This document shows positions 21,043 through 54,201 of a stretch of DNA of 64,000 bases, one piece after another. The DNA is from a virus: the UHGV virus genome UHGV-1364187; one strand, written 5' to 3'. Position 1 is the stretch's first letter, and each line of letters starts with the position of its first letter. Under the pieces are notes generated by a model. It saw only the letters and a list, made by a program, of their open reading frames with translations, was not told the origin of the DNA and did not search any database. Position numbers and translations under genes: made by a program.

Positions 21043-21539
21043 TAGATATCAATCCTTTCTAGTGTAGAAAAATACATACTATAATGTTTATCCTGTGTTA
21101 CATGATAAGTTTCGTCTGTTATAACCCACTTATCTCTAGTTAATCTATCTGCTGGAAAGTAAGTATCGCCATCAAAGAATTCATCAAATTTTGTTACGAA
21201 AATTCTCTTAGTATAATCTAAGAATTCTCTATATACCCATCCTCCTCCAATAATAAAAATATCATCATCAGGATTTTCACAATCTAATAACAATATATCA
21301 TTTACAGAATGAACAACTTCTACACCAGGAATCTTTATATCTTTATGACTTAATACTATATTTCTTCTATCTGGCAATGGTCTACCAATACTTTCATAAG
21401 TCTTTCTTCCCATCACTACAGTATGACCTGTAGTGATGTCTTTAAAATGTTTTCTATCTTCTCTAACTATTCCCCAAGGTAATTCATTATCTCTACCTAT
21501 TATCATATTTCTAGATATAGCAACAATCATATTAATCAT
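21042..21539 (-). CDS. folA: dihydrofolate reductase
   Basis: MINMIVAIS-x-N-x-IG-x-DN-x-LPW...VVMGRKTYESIGRPLP-x-R-x-NIVLS is the classic DHFR fingerprint. The start was trimmed to the Met behind GGAGAG. Confidence 0.8.
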   Translation of the reverse strand: MINMIVAISRNMIIGRDNELPWGIVREDRKHFKDITTGHTVVMGRKTYESIGRPLPDRRNIVLSHKDIKIPGVEVVHSVNDILLLDCENPDDDIFIIGGGWVYREFLDYTKRIFVTKFDEFFDGDTYFPADRLTRDKWVITDETYHVTQDKHYSMYFSTLERIDI

Positions 21540-21993
21540 TATAATCTCTCCAATCTTTAACAATATATCCAGGAATAAATGTAGCTGGAATATTATTTGG
21601 TTTTATTTCTGCTGGTACAAGACAATTATTATATAATGCTCTTTCTTGCTCCAACATTATTTGAGCTGGAGTGTACATTCCTTCCTTATTAGGAGCTATA
21701 TTATTTGTATCTATAGCTGGAACAAAATATGCTGGTCTTATTCTCTGAACTAATGTCTTCTTAAATACCATTCTTAAGCCTATAGCTTTAAGATAAGTAT
21801 GCATAATTTGTGCAGTTATATTATTAGTTTCATTATCTATTTGTACATCCACGTTATATGGATCATCAGTAAGAATATTCTTAGCTAATCTTCTACCATG
21901 TGTACTAGCACTATTGATAAGTAGCATTACTAATAATAACTCAGCATCTACGTGCATTAAATTTGAAGCTTCCATAGACCCACCACTACACAA
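21532..21993 (-). CDS. RNA polymerase beta subunit C-terminal fragment, exon 2 (after the intron)
   Basis: GGSMEASNLMHVDAELLLVMLLINSASTHGRR aligns with RpoB [31 protein letters not shown]. The true exon start is about 21,985-21,993. Confidence 0.6.
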   Translation of the reverse strand: MCSGGSMEASNLMHVDAELLLVMLLINSASTHGRRLAKNILTDDPYNVDVQIDNETNNITAQIMHTYLKAIGLRMVFKKTLVQRIRPAYFVPAIDTNNIAPNKEGMYTPAQIMLEQERALYNNCLVPAEIKPNNIPATFIPGYIVKDWRDYND

Positions 21994-22470
21994 ATTGTGT
22001 AGCAGACTATATCACCACCATATACTTTAAAAAAGTACTTAGGTGCCTCCCATTTCGGATATACTATATCCTACTCTACTCACTTCGTCTATATCTAATT
22101 TATTAGATATACCTTATTTTTAACTAGATTACTAGTATATTAGCTTTCGATAGTCGTTGAACTTTAATCTTTGAATATAGTTTTATATTTATATATTATA
22201 TTTGATATTATTCAAAGATTCTTAGCTGCTGATTGTAGATCTGTTACGTTAACTTAGCACCTATTATTGAATAGGCTTTTATCTCAGCATATCAACACAG
22301 AATCAATTTTTTCTGTCTTTCGACGACATTCACACCCATCCTTACGGATCATGTTGTAGTTTGATTCTGAATAACTACTTCCCAGACAAATTAAAGAGGT
22401 TTTTACTTCTATCTTTTTCAAGATAAAAGGCACATGTATGTCTATGCAACTGGTGTACGACTGTATGGTG
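21990..22470 (-). ncRNA. group I self-splicing intron without an ORF, in the RNAP beta gene (boundaries approximate)
   Basis: Minus-strand R element gttcaacgacta (22151-22162), Q aatcagcagc (22226-22236), S gatatagtctgc (22002-22013), P-like aatttgtctggg (22381-22392) and P9 hairpin ctacacaaattgtgtag. The G+C content is higher than in the flanks. The RpoB homology resumes immediately after. Confidence 0.7.
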
Positions 22471-24220
22471 ACTCGTATAATTTACTTGCACGAGATCTTG
22501 TATTTTGCCCTCTTACATTAGTTGCTGATAAAGATGTTGTTGAGAATTTCTCTTCTGCAACTTGTTTTAATCTGTAATAATATATATGACCAGCAATAAG
22601 TTTTCTTCTAGTAGGTATGGCTCTATAATTACCCATAGAATCTTTTTGTTGAATCATAACTGTATAAGGTTCGATCCAATCAAAATGTTTATACATTTGA
22701 TCTAATAAATCTATACCATATGATTCTGTTATAGGTTCTATTTGGAAATGAATACAATCATAAGACTTGATACTGTCTAAGAATAATTTCTTATCTTGTT
22801 CTGACATATTGTCTACTATATTTTTTGTATATCTGTACATATTAGGACTTACAAAAGATAAGAAATCAAAGTACATTTGAAACGCTTCTTCATCTGTGCA
22901 TAATGGAGATCTCATTCTTTCTATAATTCTAGAACTTATAAAATTAGATTCCATTTCAATATGTTGTCCAGGATTAAGACGTCCTACTATACCTGCAGAA
23001 TTCCATATTGCGTCTGCATGTTTTCCATTGTCAAATAAAGGCATTAATTCTTCTGGTAAGAATCCAGCAATAACACCTTTACCTCCATATCTATTAGTAA
23101 TCTTATCACCAATTTGTATACGACTAACTTCATATACCATGAAATCAATTACTAAGAAAGAGAATTCATTATCTTTTTCATTCAAGAAATGTTGTCCGTC
23201 TAATATTCTCTTATGAAATAGATATAACTCTTCTAAGTCATATGATTTTTTAATACTTTTATCATTTACAATTGGTTCTAATACATTAACTATTTCTCTA
23301 GAGAATCTTTGTTGATTCATATAAATCATAGCTAATTGAGAGTATTTAGAATCTGTAAATAGTAATTCTGGATCGTTACAATATATATCACAATCTATTA
23401 GTACACCTGACCCTATTGTAACTTTAACATCAGAAGTCATTATTTTTCTTAATCTATCTTGGCTTGCAGAATAAAATTGTTCTTCATTTTTCTTTAGACG
23501 AGTACCCATAAGAATACCATCTTTTACCTCTTCTCCTACAAAAGGACATACTTTATAACTACCATCTTTACCATAAAGATTCAATGGAACGTTATTAGTA
23601 TTTATACTTATACGTTTTGGTTTGAATACTGGAGTATCAAATTTTGGACGAACAGCTTCGCTTAGAATAATACCATCTTCGCAAGTCTTAGCTATATTCA
23701 TAAATACTCCATTAAGATTTATACCATCCATCTTATTACCATAATCATCATAAGATGAGCTTTTTCTTATTACATCACCTTGTTTAATTACATCACCAAC
23801 TTTTTTACTATCCATATATTTATTATTATACTTATATCCATTTGTTTCTGTAAGATAATTATAATCTACTCTATGATATATAGTATAAGAATTATTAGTT
23901 GGATTGCGTAATATAAGAATATAATCATGTTCTGGTAAATGTTCAAATTTTGATATCTTAGCAACTATCTCATATTCCATATCAGCTAACAATACAGCAC
24001 TATTATATCTACCATATTCATTAGCATATCCAGTATCACAGAATGCGATTTCTGAATTAATAAGATCTGTTCTATGATCATTATGAACATTATACATCTT
24101 CTTTCTTGATGCTGCATTATGATTATTGAACGGTTCTTTCAATCCTTTAGACAATACGTAATCTAATTTCTTTGGAACGTATTGATCTATTCTTGTTAGT
24201 GGATCTGTTATTATTGCCAT
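22442..24220 (-). CDS. RNA polymerase beta subunit C-terminal fragment, exon 1
   Basis: GINLNGVFMNIAKTCEDGIILSE matches the RpoB GxN..VAFMPW.GYNFEDAI block. GDKITNRYGGKGVIAGF matches GDKxxGRHGNKGV, and NPGQHIEME is also present. The last roughly 20 codons before the stop at 22442 are intron-encoded. Confidence 0.7.
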   Translation of the reverse strand: MAIITDPLTRIDQYVPKKLDYVLSKGLKEPFNNHNAASRKKMYNVHNDHRTDLINSEIAFCDTGYANEYGRYNSAVLLADMEYEIVAKISKFEHLPEHDYILILRNPTNNSYTIYHRVDYNYLTETNGYKYNNKYMDSKKVGDVIKQGDVIRKSSSYDDYGNKMDGINLNGVFMNIAKTCEDGIILSEAVRPKFDTPVFKPKRISINTNNVPLNLYGKDGSYKVCPFVGEEVKDGILMGTRLKKNEEQFYSASQDRLRKIMTSDVKVTIGSGVLIDCDIYCNDPELLFTDSKYSQLAMIYMNQQRFSREIVNVLEPIVNDKSIKKSYDLEELYLFHKRILDGQHFLNEKDNEFSFLVIDFMVYEVSRIQIGDKITNRYGGKGVIAGFLPEELMPLFDNGKHADAIWNSAGIVGRLNPGQHIEMESNFISSRIIERMRSPLCTDEEAFQMYFDFLSFVSPNMYRYTKNIVDNMSEQDKKLFLDSIKSYDCIHFQIEPITESYGIDLLDQMYKHFDWIEPYTVMIQQKDSMGNYRAIPTRRKLIAGHIYYYRLKQVAEEKFSTTSLSATNVRGQNTRSRASKLYESPYSRTPVA

Positions 24221-24301
24221 GTTTCTTCTCCTCCTTGAATGTTTAATATATGATAGATATAAGAAAAAGTTCATTATATCTATCATATATATAATATATA
24301 A

Positions 24302-24763
24302 TTATGCGACGTTTTGGATCATAGATAATATGTCATCTGTAGATGATGTTAACCCTACTTCATCTTCTTCTGGTTCTTCATAAGTATCAGATAGCATAGA
24401 TTTCATCTCTTCTAAGACAATTGTATTAAATACTGATCTAAACTCTGAGTCTGTATTAAGTTTATTCTTAAATTGTTTTTGAGAGAATTTCATATCACTT
24501 CTATCACCTAGGTACAAATATGCACCTGCACCATTAAGAACTCCACGTTGTTTTAAGAACATAAACATTGATAAATCTGCATCAAATCCATCACTTTGAC
24601 TAAATACTAATGGAACAGATTGACCAGCTTTATTTGTTCTTGATTTAACAAGTGTTACCTCTGTAATGTTTCCGTCTAAGTCGAATACTTCTCCTTCTTT
24701 TAACTTAGATCCATCATCAAATCTAATAATATTATTTGCTAAGTATATAGGTGTATTGCCGCC
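24302..24763 (-). CDS. RecA/UvsX-like recombinase, exon 2
   Basis: GGNTPIYLANNIIRF matches RecA GGNALKFYASVRLDIRR and UvsX GGGTGPMYSADTVF. Confidence 0.6.
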   Translation of the reverse strand, partial: GGNTPIYLANNIIRFDDGSKLKEGEVFDLDGNITEVTLVKSRTNKAGQSVPLVFSQSDGFDADLSMFMFLKQRGVLNGAGAYLYLGDRSDMKFSQKQFKNKLNTDSEFRSVFNTIVLEEMKSMLSDTYEEPEEDEVGLTSSTDDILSMIQNVA

Positions 24764-24766
24764 CAT

Positions 24767-25150
24767 AATTTTATATTACATACGATCGCTACTCGTATTC
24801 TATAATTTTCATTATAGATTAGACTATATCTTCATCCTTATTATTAAGGAGCACTCCATTTCGAATACGCTTGTATTCTACTCTATTTCTAGATAGTCGT
24901 TGAACGTTCTTCTCATATAAGAAGCTTCGCTGCTGATTGTCCATTACAAATAAGACTTAGGATTTTGTCCATATCTCATACTAACCGCTTTTTTCTACTT
25001 TCGTAACCATCACGCTTATCTTTACAGATTACGTTGTGGTGGGTTAGTCTTTAGGAGTTCCCAGCAATTAAGAGTGTTTCCTAAATGCTCATTACTGAAC
25101 ATTCTCCCCAGTTATGCAATACGTTTAGGGAGTGATTCGTCAACCTTCAA
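24767..25150 (-). ncRNA. group I self-splicing intron without an ORF, in the recA-like gene (boundaries approximate)
   Basis: R gttcaacgacta (24894-24905), Q aatcagcagc (24929-24939), S gatatagtct (24821-24830), P aattgctggg (25060-25069) and P9 hairpin with a GAAA loop (24800-24817). It is homologous in sequence to the intron at 21,990-22,470. Confidence 0.7.
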
Positions 25151-25909
25151 ATATGATACTTGTGCTTTCTTACGTTGAGCAGGTGTAATAGCAACTGCTT
25201 GTGTAATATGATTGATTACAAATAAGATAATATTAGCAGCTTTTAATAATGGAATAATAGTTCTAAAGATCTTAGCATTAGCTTTAGCTGTTGCTGTTGT
25301 ACTCATCTGTCCTGACATTTCTTCTTCGTCAGAAAATTTCTCAGGCATTAATAATGCTAATGAATCTAAAATAACTACTGTAGGCTGTAATTTGTATAGC
25401 CTATTACCAAATTCATCATATAAACCAGTATCATATTCAAACTCACTTCTATTAGCAAGTTTGATATCACTAATCATCTTGATTCTTTGGAAGAAGTTTT
25501 CACATGTGATACCAGTATTTCTATGAATATATTTATCTTTAGCCTCTTCAGGTGTCATTTTAGCAAGTTTAAATAGTCTACTATTACTAATACCACCCTC
25601 AATATCTTCATGATATATAGCAGCATTAGGAAATGGTTTAACAATATTTCCAGCTGCTTGAATAGTCCATGTAGTTTTACCACATCCAGATCTACCAATA
25701 ATCATTACCATTGATCCATCTGCAATTCCAATAGAATAATATTGATATTGCTGACCGTCTGGAGTTTTTCCAATAGCTACAGTACCATTTCTAAAATCAA
25801 ATGTAAGAAATCCAGTTGAATATCCAACAGGTGTTTCTGTTTCAACTTTCATTCTATAATCTTTAGATTTTTCTACAGATTTTCTAAACATATCTACCAA
25901 TAAGCTCAT
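25112..25909 (-). CDS. RecA/UvsX-like recombinase, exon 1
   Basis: Walker A GRSGCGKTT, Walker B VVILDSLALL and INHITQA (RecA INQIR, UvsX INHT). The C-terminal approximately 15 codons are intron-derived and the stop lies inside the intron. Confidence 0.7.
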   Translation of the reverse strand: MSLLVDMFRKSVEKSKDYRMKVETETPVGYSTGFLTFDFRNGTVAIGKTPDGQQYQYYSIGIADGSMVMIIGRSGCGKTTWTIQAAGNIVKPFPNAAIYHEDIEGGISNSRLFKLAKMTPEEAKDKYIHRNTGITCENFFQRIKMISDIKLANRSEFEYDTGLYDEFGNRLYKLQPTVVILDSLALLMPEKFSDEEEMSGQMSTTATAKANAKIFRTIIPLLKAANIILFVINHITQAVAITPAQRKKAQVSYLKVDESLPKRIA

Positions 25910-27050: not shown

Positions 27051-28238
27051 CTATAGTTCTTTTCCAGTTGAAGTATTAACTAGGATTGATTTTGGACTTG
27101 ATTGTTCATTGTTAATTGTTTGAGTTTTATTTGGTTCACTTGATTTCTTTTTATTCTTAAAGAAACCAGGTTTAGTTGTTCTTACATTAAACTCATCTTC
27201 TTCAATTTCCATTTTGTTAATATCACTATAGAATGAATCTTGAGTTTTATTAACTCTACTTGCAACTTCTTGATATTTTGTATAAATATCTTGAAGTTCT
27301 TTTACTGGTAATTTTAATCCAGCGATAATAATAATAGCATATTGATCTTCGCCATCTAATACTGGTTGAATATGATCGTATGCTTCATATGGTTCTCCAA
27401 CAACATCTTTAATTGCTCTATAAGAGTAATCAATGATATTCTTTGTTTCTTCATTGATATTCCATACAACACCAATACGTTTGCATGATGGTTGTTCAAT
27501 ATCAATTGATTTTGTATTTTGGATAGCTTTAACTAATAAGTCATCTAACTGTTCTTGAGTTTTAATATCTCTTCCGATAGATACTTTTTCAATTAAACTA
27601 TATCCAGGATTGTTGATAAGTTTAAAGTGGTCTGTATCATCAATATTTTGACTTCCTTCTCTTAATACTGAACCAGTAATAACTTTAAGCTCTTCTACGA
27701 ATAATTCATTAGCCATCTTTTCAGCTGCAACTTTATTACCTTTAGCATCTGATAAGAATTTTGCATTACTAATAGTATGAACTACGTATTGTGGTAAGAA
27801 TTGTTTAAATAGATTAACTGTATTTCCTAATCCTCTTGCATCTGCATGGAATCCCATTAATGGGAATTGATGTACTGTGATGCCTGTATTTTCTGTAATG
27901 TAGTTTCCTAATACAGGAGCACCACCACATCCAGTTCCACCTTCAGCACCAAATACAATTACAACTGCATCGTCATCTTCTTCTAAGAATTCTGGTAATA
28001 ATTCTTCTAATTCTCCACCATTAAGAGATTGCTCCATCATATCAGCACCAAGTTTTGTTTCTTTACCTGCACCATTAATGTCTCCAATGATGATTGAAAT
28101 ATCTCTATACTCTACTGGGATGTCTTTGTCAGTGCTATTGATAAGTTTAACATATTCTCTAGATATTGCACCTTTTTCAATTGCATCAATACTTGCTTTG
28201 TTTCCTGCTGCACCAACACCGAATAATTTTGTTTTCAT
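27051..28238 (-). CDS. tubulin/FtsZ-family GTPase (phage PhuZ/TubZ-like)
   Basis: Glycine-rich N-terminal loop GVGAAGNKA (FtsZ GVGGGGNNA). Tubulin signature GGGTG(S/T)G within GAEGGTGCGG. Long charged C-terminal tail. Confidence 0.7.
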   Translation of the reverse strand: MKTKLFGVGAAGNKASIDAIEKGAISREYVKLINSTDKDIPVEYRDISIIIGDINGAGKETKLGADMMEQSLNGGELEELLPEFLEEDDDAVVIVFGAEGGTGCGGAPVLGNYITENTGITVHQFPLMGFHADARGLGNTVNLFKQFLPQYVVHTISNAKFLSDAKGNKVAAEKMANELFVEELKVITGSVLREGSQNIDDTDHFKLINNPGYSLIEKVSIGRDIKTQEQLDDLLVKAIQNTKSIDIEQPSCKRIGVVWNINEETKNIIDYSYRAIKDVVGEPYEAYDHIQPVLDGEDQYAIIIIAGLKLPVKELQDIYTKYQEVASRVNKTQDSFYSDINKMEIEEDEFNVRTTKPGFFKNKKKSSEPNKTQTINNEQSSPKSILVNTSTGKEL

Positions 28239-52564: not shown

Positions 52565-53521
52565 ATGACTAAATATGATAATTTAGTTGCAGCGTGCTTA
52601 TACTTGGTCTAATTTATGGTCCACATGGAGAATGTAGCCGTAGAGAACGAACCTGACGATATAGATAAGCAGATTAAAATGATTAAAGATCATAATATAA
52701 ATAAAGCACAAATTGTGCTTACTTTAGGACTAGATGATGGCGAAACAAGTAAACATAAAGGATTGTATATCGCTGGTCCTAAAAATTATGACACATCAGA
52801 TTATTTATTTAAAAGATTGGAAGAAGAAAATATAAGCATATAATTATTAAAAATCCATTTTAATTATACTGGAGTGAAGGATTGTGATAAATGGATTTCT
52901 AATACATTAGGTTCTTTAAAGGAATTTTCTAATTACTACCACGATAAAGTAATTGAAATTGCTGAAAGATATAAAGGTAGAATAGAAAATATATGCCCTT
53001 GGAATGAAACAGGATGGGGTAGTAGAGGAAATTATATCCCATTTATTAAAGATACAATTGATGATTTACATAAATTAGGATATAAAGTCACAATGAGTAC
53101 GATGGGCTTTACTGAACTTGTAGAAATTGATAAAGAAATATTAGATAAACTTGATTTCTTTAGTTGTAATAATTATCCTCACGGTTCAGTAAAAGGTAAA
53201 AAAATGTACACCAAAAGATACGGCTCAAGCATTTAGAAATTATGAGTTTGATCCATTAACAGTATATAATTGGTGTAAAAAGAATTATCCTAACAAAAAA
53301 GTATGGATAACAGAAAGTGGAACTTTTGATTCTAGTAAGCATGTGTTATTACCAGCTCTTTCTGATCCAAATATTGCAGATGGAAATAAAGAGGCTAATG
53401 GTAAAATACAAGCAAATTATTTAGATGCATTATTTACACTATATGTAAACAAATTTGAAAGAATTTGTTGGTGGTGGAAAATGGAATGTGAAGAAACTAA
53501 AAAATTATTAGGAGTAAATTA
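52565..53521 (+). pseudogene. decayed paralogue of the GH-like gene (N-terminal truncation, in-frame TAA, +1 frameshift at an A7 tract)
   Basis: Pieces 52565-52612, 52616-52843, 52874-53236 and 53222-53521 together read ICPWNETGW...VWITESG, parallel to the NE...ISETG of the intact copy. A TAA at 52841-52843 and a frame change at the A7 run (53198-53204) interrupt it. Confidence 0.55.
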
Positions 53522-53522
53522 A

Positions 53523-54170
53523 AATGACTACAATTAATAGTGATGATTTAGATTTTATCAAAGGAATGACAGTATCAAATATTTTCGATGGAGTAACTGA
53601 GCCTTTTACTTCTGTAACTATCAAAGATGATTTATATACTAAACTTTTTACAATTCAAACTCATAATAATGACCATAATGATATTGATCCTTGAGAACAA
53701 TTATTTGTTGTAGATTTTATCAATTATAGATACAAAGCAAATGGGTATGAATTAAATAAAATACCATATACTGGTATTGAAGATTTTAAGATAATTATAA
53801 ATATTAATACAAATCCAAATAATTTCCATTGTACTTATGCTTGTACAAATAAAAAAAACCATTTATTGATATTATAGCTTTAAGAACAGATGATAATAAA
53901 GTAGATTTCTATGGACTTAATAGAGTAAATGGTACTAGATTATTAAGTAGATTAAGTATTGGAAATATTTCATGTATTGATTTTTATAGAGTAGACTATA
54001 TAAAAGAACATGAATGGACTGATACGATAACAAGTGAAAAGAAAAATGATAAAGAAAGATATATTAAATGCTACTATCCTAACGTCGCTTATATGAGCGG
54101 TATTACAAATAAGATAACAGCTTTAGAAAATAGGGTAAAAGAACTAGAAGAAAAATTAACAGTTTCATAA
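53523..54170 (+). pseudogene. disrupted gene of about 216 aa (in-frame TGA at 53692-53694, frameshift at the A8 tract 53851-53858)
   Basis: Coding-like sequence with an RBS and ATG at 53523. Inserting one A at the A8 tract restores a continuous frame to the TAA at 54168. Confidence 0.45.
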
Positions 54171-54201
54171 GAAAATAAATAATACGAAGGAGTTGTTTAT
54201 A

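What the first reader, a model, noticed from the sequence alone, without database searches (positions are those of the whole stretch)
21990..25150. Two homologous group I introns without ORFs interrupt the RNA-polymerase beta gene and the recA/uvsX-like gene
Both interruptions carry the canonical group I core elements on the minus strand: P aattgctggg or aatttgtctggg, Q aatcagcagc, R gttcaacgacta and S gatatagtct. Each has a P9 hairpin immediately before the 3' exon. Host-protein homology resumes after each element: RpoB ...[13 protein letters not shown] resumes as GGSMEAS, and RecA ...TTTGGNALKFY resumes as GGNTPIYLA. The two introns are clearly related to each other, including their 5' regions, which encode similar read-through tails (ESLPKRIA versus ESPYSRTPVA). 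This suggests recent intron spread between essential genes. An intron in a multisubunit phage RNA-polymerase subunit is unusual.
Basis: partly seen in the sequence, partly recalled or inferred. Interest (0 to 1): 0.8.

Follow-up and report, generated by a model that had tools for sequence, protein, structure and literature searches.

The report
Two ORF-less group I introns

Summary
On the minus strand, a 363-nt element (25126..24764) splits the uvsX/recA-like gene. A 460-nt element (22443..21984) splits the non-virion RNA-polymerase beta C-half gene, the homologue of AR9 gp089.

- **uvsX element:** it scores 80.4 bits (E 5e-21) against Rfam Intron_gpI. This only appears when a short stretch is searched. 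The whole-window scans missed it because of the speed filters.
- **rpoB element:** it reaches only 10.9 bits in Rfam. It does match a profile of 82 related phage introns (E 8e-10). It has exact Q/R/S boxes and foldable P1-P9. Homologous introns sit 1 and 5 nt away in Staphylococcus phage PB50 and Listeria phage LPJP1.
- **Splicing:** removing each element restores an open frame that aligns without a gap to uninterrupted homologues (AR9, SA1, L131).
- **No endonuclease:** neither element holds an ORF longer than 49 aa.

- The "read-through tails" are mostly exon sequence.
- The two introns are not each other's closest relatives, so recent spread within this genome is unsupported.
- Introns in RNA-polymerase genes are documented for AR9-like phages, and a recA intron for phage 0305phi8-36.

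Verdict: new members of a known kind, of modest interest.

The parts
25127..25909 (-). uvsX/recA-like recombinase, exon 1. It ends ...YLKVDESLP; its last base U25127 pairs with G in P1.
   Evidence: phrog_97 E 4e-28. AR9 gp086 aligns through ...DESIP. L131 reads ...GERLA|GGEAIVYLSN without interruption.
24764..25126 (-). uvsX group I intron, 363 nt, with no endonuclease ORF. Helices: P1 25132-25126/25110-25104; P2 25103-25096/25091-25084; P3 25076-25071/24857-24852; P4 25067-25061/24936-24930; P5 25056-25054/24942-24940; P5a 25048-25042/24986-24980; 11-nt GAAA-tetraloop receptor UAUGG 24973-24969/CCUAAG 24961-24956; P6 24929-24928/24906-24905; P6a 24924-24920/24913-24909; P7 24898-24894/24826-24822; P7.1 24893-24890/24885-24882; P7.2 24878-24873/24868-24863; P8 24850-24845/24840-24835; P9 24818-24811/24806-24799; P9.1 24798-24793/24785-24780; terminal (omega) G at 24764.
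   Evidence: RF00028 80.4 bits, E 5e-21. nhmmer family profile E 1.9e-30. The unconstrained minimum-free-energy fold recovers P2-P9.1.
24302..24763 (-). uvsX/recA-like recombinase, exon 2. It starts GGNTPIYLANN... The spliced product is 414 aa.
   Evidence: phrog_97 positions 363-472. AR9 residue 250 onward aligns from the first residue. The spliced protein aligns as a single HSP 1-386 to AR9 and 1-370 to L007.
22444..24220 (-). Non-virion RNA-polymerase beta subunit C-half (AR9 gp089 homologue), exon 1. It ends ...YSRTPVA plus the first base (U22444) of a Cys codon.
   Evidence: phrog_3295 E 3e-77 and Pfam RNA_pol_Rpb2_6. AR9 gp089 aligns through ...LYSKTPV. Gene order uvsX-rpoB-ligase matches AR9.
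21984..22443 (-). rpoB group I intron, 460 nt, with no endonuclease ORF. Helices: P1 22447-22443/22434-22430; P2 22429-22421/22414-22406; P3 22399-22394/22051-22046; P4 22390-22382 (one bulged U)/22232-22226; P5 22378-22375/22238-22235; P5a 22369-22361/22306-22298; receptor variant UAUGC 22291-22287/GCUAAG 22258-22253; P6 22225-22224/22163-22162; P6a 22220-22209/22177-22166; P7 22155-22151/22009-22005; extended P7.1 region 22150-22075; P7.2 22071-22066/22062-22057; P8 22045-22042/22019-22016; P8a 22038-22032/22028-22022; P9 22002-21995/21993-21986; terminal (omega) G at 21984.
   Evidence: Exact Q, R and S boxes. nhmmer family profile E 7.7e-10 over Q to S; the P7.2-P3'-P8-S piece alone gives E 1.7e-4. 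RF00028 gives only 10.9 bits, E 4.2. The minimum-free-energy fold recovers P2, P3, P5a, P6a, P7.1, P7.2, P8 and P9. The exact junction is inferred from the P1 pairing and from the length of homologues.
21532..21983 (-). RNA-polymerase beta C-half, exon 2. It starts GU GGG UCU AUG..., giving ...PVA-C-GSMEASNLMH... The spliced product is 742 aa.
   Evidence: AR9 GNMEISNL aligns with GSMEASNL. The spliced protein aligns as a single HSP 23-664 to AR9 and 23-666 to SA1. P0002 reads ...HTPIRMGEMEINDM without interruption.

Best explanation
Both elements are group I (subgroup IA-type, carrying P7.1/P7.2) self-splicing introns. They lie in two essential genes of an AR9-like jumbo phage of about 256 kb and 28% G+C, recovered from gut metagenomes.

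Inferred mechanism:
1. Each gene is transcribed as a precursor.
2. The intron folds into the P3-P9 core. A P5 extension carrying an 11-nt GAAA-tetraloop receptor helps stabilise it.
3. The internal guide sequence pairs with the last bases of exon 1: CUCCCU with GGGGAG in uvsX, and GCAU with GUGC in rpoB.
4. An external guanosine attacks after U25127 (uvsX) or U22444 (rpoB).
5. The freed exon 1 then attacks after the terminal G (24764 or 21984).
6. The ligated mRNAs encode a 414-aa UvsX-like recombinase and a 742-aa beta C-half.

A stop codon lies at or just after each 5' splice site: UAG spans the rpoB junction, and UAA is the fifth codon into the uvsX intron. Ribosomes are therefore kept out of the ribozyme.

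Neither intron carries a homing endonuclease gene. They are splice-only descendants of mobile introns. Any spread would need an endonuclease supplied in trans, recombination with a co-infecting phage, or reverse splicing.

What is shown: sequence, fold, family membership and frame restoration. What is inferred: catalysis, the exact rpoB junction, and the mode of mobility.
For: - **Covariance model:** RF00028 scores 80.4 bits (gathering score 50) on the uvsX intron.
- **Family profile:** a profile HMM built only from 82 IMG/VR introns hits exactly these two places in the window, at E 1.9e-30 and 7.7e-10, and nowhere else.
- **Family covariation:** the family shows strong covariation on the named P3/P6/P7.1/P7.2/P8 helices. 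95.7% of cells pair against 72.9% in shuffles. The covariation score is 0.628 against 0.174, and at most 0.171 when partners are slid.
- **Compensatory differences between the two window introns** keep these helices paired:
  - P3: CACUCU/GGAGUG versus CCUCUU/GGGAGG
  - P5: UCC/GGA versus GUAG/CUAC
  - P5a: ACUAACC/GGUUAGU versus CAGAAUCAA/UUGAUUCUG
  - P6: G-C versus U-A
  - receptor: UAUGG/CCUAAG versus UAUGC/GCUAAG
- **Junction rules:** both junctions obey U|...G| and restore the reading frame.
- **Gapless alignment to uninterrupted genes:** AR9 DESIP|GGTSCIYLAN and L131 GERLA|GGEAIVYLSN for uvsX. AR9 TPVRIGNME, SA1 PLRIGEME and P0002 TPIRMGEME for rpoB.
- **Related introns at nearly the same rpoB site** pass RF00028: LPJP1 58.9 bits and L129 62.8 bits.
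- **No coding capacity:** no intron ORF exceeds 49 aa and none has a Pfam hit.
- **Viable population:** the rpoB locus, with its intron, is 100% identical in the contigs examined from several gut assemblies. Three of them span the whole rpoB intron. The interrupted gene must therefore be expressed.
Against: - The rpoB intron fails the Rfam gathering score (10.9 bits) and has a bulged U in P4. Its P1 has only 4-5 bp and its P10 is weak.
- The predicted spliced RpoB reads ...TPV-AC-GSME. Relatives have R/K followed by I/V/M at those two positions. This is odd for a conserved catalytic-region motif.
- A GGUGGG sequence 4 nt upstream of AUG 21975 could act as a ribosome-binding site for a separate C-terminal fragment.
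- No RNA data were available, so splicing is not demonstrated.
- The family profile was seeded with a Q...R pattern taken from the window itself, so part of the profile score follows from that construction.
Confidence: 0.9

Rival explanations
1. The genes are genuinely split. The intervening RNA is a decayed intron remnant that no longer splices, and the halves are translated separately and assemble as subunits. Jumbo-phage RNA polymerases are already built from beta and beta' fragments.
For: Gene callers in public assemblies call the halves as separate proteins. A possible Shine-Dalgarno sequence, GGUGGG, precedes AUG 21975. The rpoB element scores below threshold in Rfam.
Against: - The breaks fall inside conserved motifs (R-I-G-E-M-E, and the segment before GG-x-x-x-Y).
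- They obey the U|...G| rule and restore the frame exactly.
- All core boxes are intact, with compensatory changes.
- The uvsX C-part has no ribosome-binding site.
- The relatives found (AR9, SA1, L131, P0002) carry uninterrupted sequence at these two sites rather than two separate genes.
Confidence: 0.04
2. The introns are real, but the two copies arose by a recent duplication within this genome, moving from one essential gene to the other.
For: Both share the long P5 extension with a tetraloop receptor, and identical Q, R and S boxes. In other phages a 95% identical intron sits in uvsX (L014) and in rpoB (L129).
Against: - Between the two window introns only short core patches align, with a best E of 0.002.
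- Each has closer relatives elsewhere.
- The Q/R core is shared by at least 120 IMG/VR contigs.
- Their P7.1 domains are of different types (read).
Confidence: 0.1
3. The rpoB intron is real but does not self-splice efficiently. It would need a protein cofactor, or act as a conditional splicing switch that limits synthesis of the non-virion RNA polymerase.
For: It has a bulged P4, a short P1, a weak P10, large peripheral insertions and a low covariance-model score.
Against: No maturase-like ORF is present. The peripheral elements (tetraloops and receptor) are of the kind that normally stabilise autonomous folding. These tools give no data either way.
Confidence: 0.12
4. The motif matches are due to chance in AT-rich intergenic spacers.
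For: None beyond the negative whole-window Rfam scans.
Against. The negative scans were filter losses, as one search shows.
Confidence: 0.01

Closest known systems
Introns in RNA-polymerase subunit genes of Bacillus phage AR9/PBS1 and of the MarsHill-like Staphylococcus jumbo phages (Lavysh 2016, as cited in bioRxiv 10.1101/2020.12.14.422802 and PMC12350094)
   Same: Same phage group, by synteny uvsX - beta C-half - NAD ligase. Self-splicing introns interrupt multisubunit RNA-polymerase genes.
   Different: AR9's own gp089 and uvsX are uninterrupted at these sites. Several AR9 introns carry endonuclease genes; these two do not.
Unannotated introns in the same beta C-half gene of Listeria phage LPJP1 (MZ422438) and Staphylococcus phage PB50 (OR770614)
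   Same: Same gene and the same R(I/V)GEME motif. LPJP1's intron is ORF-less, has the same P/Q/R/S boxes and P5 extension, and scores 58.9 bits in RF00028.
   Different: The insertion points are staggered. In the window the break is between bases 1 and 2 of the I/V-equivalent codon. In PB50 it is between bases 2 and 3. In LPJP1 and L129 it is after the following Gly codon. The guide sequences differ accordingly.
recA group I introns of Bacillus anthracis and of B. thuringiensis jumbo phage 0305phi8-36 (PMC2504315), and the rec intron with I-MsaII in Kayvirus MSA6 (JX080304)
   Same: A group I intron in a RecA-family recombinase gene. Most B. cereus-group copies have lost the endonuclease gene yet still splice. 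The MSA6 intron shares 69% identity over 204 nt with the uvsX intron.
   Different: The MSA6 insertion lies near the N-terminus and carries an endonuclease gene. The insertion sites of the B. anthracis and 0305phi8-36 introns could not be compared here.
Endonuclease-carrying intron of Enterocloster bolteae phages CB457P2/CB473P1-3
   Same: Its ribozyme core is the closest cultured-phage match to the uvsX intron: 74% over 283 nt, E 1e-31.
   Different: It sits in a different, unnamed host gene. It is followed by an I-TevI-like 'intron-associated endonuclease 1' gene.
T4 td/nrdB/nrdD and Twort group IA2 introns (from general knowledge)
   Same: Phage protein-coding genes of DNA metabolism, a P7.1/P7.2-bearing core, and a stop codon soon after the 5' splice site.
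   Different: Subclass (IA1, IA2 or IA3) was not determined here. The long P5 extension with an 11-nt receptor was not compared with these introns.

Membership tests
Group I intron (Rfam RF00028) | Covariance-model score at or above the gathering score (50 bits) | tested here: met
   uvsX intron: 80.4 bits, E 5e-21, when only 24740-25150 is searched. The hit is lost in the whole-window and 3.5-kb searches.
Group I intron (Rfam RF00028) | Covariance-model score at or above the gathering score, rpoB element | tested here: not met
   10.9 bits, E 4.2. This is most likely caused by the approximately 125-nt P5, 63-nt P6 and approximately 140-nt P7.1/7.2 insertions and the bulged P4. A sequence profile of the family gives E 7.7e-10. 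Neighbouring-site homologues score 58.9 and 62.8 bits.
Group I intron | Conserved core: P3-P4-P5-P6-P7-P8 with P/Q/R/S boxes in order, and the long-range P3 pairing | tested here: met
   Exact Q/R/S boxes in both. P3 pairs in both, with compensatory differences. P3 covaries in 5 of 6 pairs across 38 family members.
Group I intron | 5' splice site after a U that forms a U.G pair with the internal guide sequence (P1), and a 3'-terminal G | tested here: met
   uvsX: CUCCCU|A...U-GGGGAG, ending ...UUAUG| (junction fixed). rpoB: GCAU|A...U-GUGC, ending ...GUAGUG|. This is the only pairing-supported combination that gives the length seen in homologues.
Group I intron | Removal restores an uninterrupted, homologous reading frame | tested here: met
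   The spliced proteins align as single HSPs across the junctions to AR9, SA1, L007 and L131.
Group I intron | Guanosine-dependent self-splicing | not testable with these tools
   Needs an in-vitro transcript with GTP, or RT-PCR.
Subgroup IA | P7.1 and P7.2 hairpins between P7 and P3' | tested here: met
   uvsX: UCUA-GAAA-UAGA and GAAUAC-AAGC-GUAUUC. rpoB: an extended P7.1 region plus GGAUAU-AGU-AUAUCC. The IA1/IA2/IA3 subclass was not assigned because no subclass models were available.
Mobile (homing) group I intron | Intron-encoded homing endonuclease | tested here: not met
   The longest intron ORFs are 49 and 41 aa, with no Pfam hit. No GIY-YIG or LAGLIDADG motif was found anywhere in the window by a regular-expression scan. 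The HNH pattern was not evaluated.

The most novel reading that the evidence does not exclude
The R(I/V)GEME segment of the non-virion RNA-polymerase beta gene is a recurrent landing site for one ORF-less intron lineage. That lineage also hops between rpoB and uvsX.

- Three staggered insertion points lie within 5 nt in four phages (window, PB50, LPJP1, L129).
- A 95% identical ribozyme body sits in uvsX of one phage (L014) and in rpoB of another (L129). Their guide-sequence and P1 segments are completely different, and the flanking DNA is unrelated.

This would point to ectopic transposition by exchange of the 5' guide module, or by an endonuclease acting in trans, rather than classical homing. 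The Ala-Cys that replaces the conserved Arg-Ile at the window's junction could be a scar of such an event.
Probability: 0.3. Interest if true: 0.5.

Novelty: new member of a known kind. Interest (0 to 1): 0.3.

Why it matters
- **Annotation.** Public gene calls for this phage list four fragments where there are two essential genes. The correct products are a 414-aa UvsX-like recombinase and a 742-aa beta C-half.
- **Method.** An 80-bit Rfam Intron_gpI match was lost in a 64-kb scan and in a 3.5-kb scan, and appeared only in a 411-nt scan. Insertion-rich phage introns can fall far below the gathering score. "No covariance-model hit" is therefore a weak refutation criterion for phage introns.
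- **Biology.** The finding extends the intron-rich habit of AR9-like jumbo phages to an uncultured gut phage. It adds cases to an apparent insertion hotspot in the RNA-polymerase catalytic region.

Tried and rejected
- **Rfam scans.** The whole-window scan at gathering score and the 3.5-kb scan at E<=10 gave no Intron_gpI hit. One search shows these were filter artefacts. Rfam on whole related loci also missed their introns.
- **Compact synthetic core model.** R1 (109 positions, peripheral elements deleted) was built. It performed badly on real introns: uvsX got 29.8 bits with a spurious partial alignment and rpoB got 11 bits. I abandoned it in favour of an nhmmer profile.
- **Nearby phage genomes.** Megablast of the locus against cultured phages found nothing.
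- **Protein homologues.** The search for homologous proteins with the junction region returned only the phage's own C-fragment and one 47% relative.
- **Alternative rpoB junctions.** I considered YS|SMEAS, TPV|GGSME, KF|GGSME and TPV-SGGSME. I rejected them because they delete TPV or change the motif length relative to AR9, SA1 and P0002, or because they lack any P1 pairing. TPV-SGGSME (5' site after cca gu, 3' site inside P9) has the right length but no P1, and it stays a minor alternative.
- **Papers not held.** Lavysh 2016 and Ko 2002 could not be read.
- **0305phi8-36 recA intron.** A RecA tblastn did not bring it into the listed rows.
- **Population variation.** The contigs examined from the public assemblies carrying this phage are 100% identical over the locus, so there is no variation to exploit.


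Full report
**Setting.** All features lie on the minus strand.
- ORF 25909..25112 matches UvsX-like recombinases: phrog_97 positions 21-225, with weak Pfam RecA and AAA hits.
- ORF 24766..24302 matches the C-terminal part of the same family (positions 363-472).
- ORF 24220..22442 matches phage RNA polymerase beta: phrog_3295 positions 16-607 of 698, and Pfam RNA_pol_Rpb2_6.
- tblastn places the phage with the AR9/PBS1-like jumbo phages of Bacillus, Staphylococcus and Listeria.
- The gene order is the same as in AR9: uvsX, then the non-virion RNA-polymerase beta C-half (gp089), then NAD ligase.
- The window also holds a tubulin-like gene, DHFR, a DNA polymerase, an SbcC-like gene, and intact gyrase B and A genes.
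- Its G+C content is 28%.
- The same rpoB locus, 100% identical over the stretches compared, occurs on a 256,505-bp contig and on several gut-metagenome assemblies.

- The exact R (GTTCAACGACTA), Q (AATCAGCAGC) and S (GATATAGTCT) boxes each occur only twice in 64 kb. They fall inside the two gaps, on the coding strand, in the order Q-R-S.
- The two gaps are the two largest non-coding stretches among the minus-strand genes: 345 and 448 nt between called ORFs.

**The covariance-model question.**
- The first two Rfam scans were indeed empty: the whole window at gathering score, and 3.5 kb at E<=10. This is a filter artefact.
- Searching only 24740-25150 gives RF00028 Intron_gpI at 80.4 bits (gathering 50), E 5e-21, for 25136..24800. 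The alignment shows P1-P9.
- As a positive control, RF00028 finds many IMG/VR introns that carry the same Q...R core, at 52-104 bits.
- The rpoB element scores only 10.9 bits, E 4.2. It carries large insertions in P5, P6 and P7.1, and a bulged U in P4.

**Independent evidence for the rpoB element.**
- I aligned 82 IMG/VR introns, none from the window, and searched the window with the profile using nhmmer. This gave uvsX intron E 1.9e-30, rpoB intron E 7.7e-10 (22236..22003), and nothing else.
- With a 47-sequence profile, the P7.2-P3'-P8-S piece alone, which excludes the Q/R pattern used to collect the family, gives E 1.7e-4.
- The family structure is strongly supported. On a 38-sequence core alignment, 95.7% of cells pair (shuffles 72.9%). 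The covariation score is 0.628 (shuffles 0.174, slid partners at most 0.171). P3 varies on both sides in 5 of 6 pairs.

**Anatomy.**
- For the uvsX intron, an unconstrained minimum-free-energy fold reproduces P2, P3, P4, P5/P5a and its hairpins, P6, P7.1, P7.2, P8, P9 and P9.1.
- For the rpoB intron it reproduces P2, P3, P5a, P6a, P7.1, P7.2, P8 and P9.
- The two introns differ by compensatory changes in P3, P5, P5a, P6 and the receptor helix.
- Both have a roughly 120-nt P5 extension with GNRA hairpins and an 11-nt GAAA-tetraloop receptor. This is UAUGG/CCUAAG in uvsX and the compensated variant UAUGC/GCUAAG in rpoB.
- P7.1 and P7.2 place them in subgroup IA. I could not assign IA1, IA2 or IA3.
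- Their P7.1 domains are of different types. The uvsX intron has the simple UCNN-loop-NNGA form. The rpoB intron has the UCGAAAG...GAAGUGAGUAGAGUA form seen in L100, L110, L020 and L129.

**Junctions: uvsX.**
- AR9 UvsX reads ...NYFKQDESIP-GGTSCIYLAN. The window reads ...SYLKVDESLP then GGNTPIYLAN, with no gap.
- A 55%-identical uninterrupted relative, L131, reads ...SYLKQGERLA-GGEAIVYLSN.
- Exon 1 therefore ends at U25127 (CUCCCU, pairing with GGGGAG at 25109-25104). The intron ends at G24764.
- A 7-nt stretch of the P1 loop (GUAUUGC, 25122-25116) is perfectly complementary to exon-2 bases +5 to +11. This is a possible offset P10, which is my inference.

**Junctions: rpoB.**
- The "read-through" ...YSRTPVA aligns to AR9 ...YSKTPV, so it is exon sequence.
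- Relatives have V/I, two residues, Gly, one residue, then Met-Glu: AR9 TPVRIGNME, SA1 PLRIGEME and P0002 TPIRMGEME.
- One splice-site pair keeps this length, obeys the U|...G| rule and has a P1 (GCAU|A...U-GUGC, immediately 5' of P2 as in the other introns). It is 22444|22443 with 21984|21983, and it gives ...TPVACGSMEAS.
- I give this junction about 75% confidence. A same-length alternative (...TPVSGGSME) has no P1, and its 3' site lies inside P9.
- The spliced proteins align as single HSPs across both junctions.

**Relatives.**
- AR9, Staphylococcus phage SA1 and the metagenomic relative P0002 are uninterrupted at the rpoB site.
- Listeria phage LPJP1 and IMG/VR contig L129 carry a homologous ORF-less intron after the next Gly codon: ...RVG|EME and ...KIG|EME. 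These score 58.9 and 62.8 bits in RF00028.
- Staphylococcus phage PB50 carries a small group I intron one base further on than the window's intron (aga gu|c ggu gag).
- Together these make three insertion points within 5 nt of the conserved R(I/V)GEME segment.
- For uvsX, contig L014 has a related intron 12 nt upstream of the window's site (...YLKQD|, with P1 CAGGAU/GUCCUG).

**Are the two window introns recent copies of each other?** The evidence says no.
- blastn between them finds only core patches, with a best E of 0.002.
- The uvsX intron is 76% identical over 272 nt to L029, which sits in a different gene. It is 74% identical over 283 nt to introns of Enterocloster bolteae phages, which are followed by an I-TevI-like endonuclease gene.
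- The best partial match of the rpoB intron is LPJP1.
- The shared Q...R core occurs on at least 120 IMG/VR contigs, and similar introns occur in 168 cultured-phage records.
- Elsewhere the lineage clearly does move between these two genes. L014's uvsX intron and L129's rpoB intron are 95% identical over the 138 nt available, while their P1/guide segments and flanks are unrelated.

**No ORFs.** The longest ORFs within the introns are 49 and 41 aa, and none has a Pfam hit. Regular-expression scans found no GIY-YIG or LAGLIDADG motif anywhere in the window. HNH was not evaluated.

**Comparison with what is known.**
- Introns in RNA-polymerase subunit genes are described as frequent in AR9 and in the MarsHill-like Staphylococcus jumbo phages (bioRxiv 10.1101/2020.12.14.422802).
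- Group I introns in recA are known in the Bacillus cereus group, mostly without an endonuclease gene and with splicing shown. They are also known in phage 0305phi8-36 (PMC2504315).
- Kayvirus MSA6 annotates a rec intron with I-MsaII.
- ORF-less phage introns and "collaborative homing" with free-standing endonucleases are reviewed in PMC3984707.
- These two elements are therefore new members of a known kind.

**What remains odd.**
- The predicted beta protein has Ala-Cys where relatives have Arg or Lys followed by Ile, Val or Met.
- The rpoB intron has a short P1 and a bulged P4.
- Splicing itself is inferred. The argument rests on both genes being essential and on the phage being recovered unchanged from several independent samples.

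Noticed in passing
window 1-64000: Technical point. The Rfam scan of the whole window at gathering score, and a 3.5-kb scan at E<=10, both missed an Intron_gpI match. That match scores 80.4 bits when only 411 nt are searched. The speed filters lose insertion-rich, AT-rich phage introns.
   Followed up: yes
window 22450-21975 (spliced codons around 22444/21983): The spliced RNA-polymerase beta reads ...TPV-Ala-Cys-GSME. AR9, SA1, LPJP1, PB50 and P0002 have Arg, and L129 has Lys, followed by Ile, Val or Met. A conserved basic residue of the QRFGEME-like motif is missing exactly at the intron junction.
   Followed up: partly
window 24248-24288: A perfect 15-bp inverted repeat (AUAUGAUAGAUAUAA ... 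UUAUAUCUAUCAUAU, 11-nt loop) lies between the uvsX stop codon and the strong AAGGAGG ribosome-binding site of rpoB. It produced only noise-level Rfam hits. It could be a terminator, a processing hairpin or a regulatory hairpin.
   Followed up: no
window 53237-54192: A 956-nt stretch among plus-strand genes holds only short ORFs (59 and 56 aa at most). It is the largest stretch of the window without a long ORF. It contains no tRNA and no copy of this intron family.
   Followed up: partly
L014 1-136 and L129 5989-6126: Nearly the same intron (95% identity over 138 nt) sits in uvsX of one uncultured jumbo phage and in rpoB of another. The internal guide sequences are entirely different, and there is no other DNA similarity between the two loci.
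   Followed up: partly
L003 (Staphylococcus phage PB50) 2980-5642 and L006 (AH12): The same beta C-half gene is annotated as four separate 'non-viral RNA polymerase beta subunit' CDS. They are separated by gaps of about 150-190 nt. The last gap is a compact group I intron of roughly 190 nt with P/Q/R/S boxes. AH12 has an additional 447-aa ORF in one gap.
   Followed up: partly
L004 (Listeria phage LPJP1) 269-354 and 5948-7695: Rfam finds a group II intron domain upstream of uvsX. This fits the report of four group II introns in LPJP1 (PMC12350094). The NAD-ligase gene is annotated in two pieces (ligA_2 and ligA_1) with a gap of about 100 nt.
   Followed up: no
L002 (Bacillus phage Internexus) 4696-4800 and 9567-10057; L007 7780-7913: The family profile also hits an ORF-containing insertion in the Internexus beta C-half gene and an element splitting its DNA-ligase gene. 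It hits a 350-nt gap further upstream in the rpoB of the closest metagenomic relative (before ...KQYAEEKFS).
   Followed up: no
window 27051-28238 (minus strand): A tubulin/FtsZ-like gene (Pfam Tubulin, E 9e-5, below the curated cut-off) lies upstream of uvsX. Similar genes occur in other jumbo phages.
   Followed up: no
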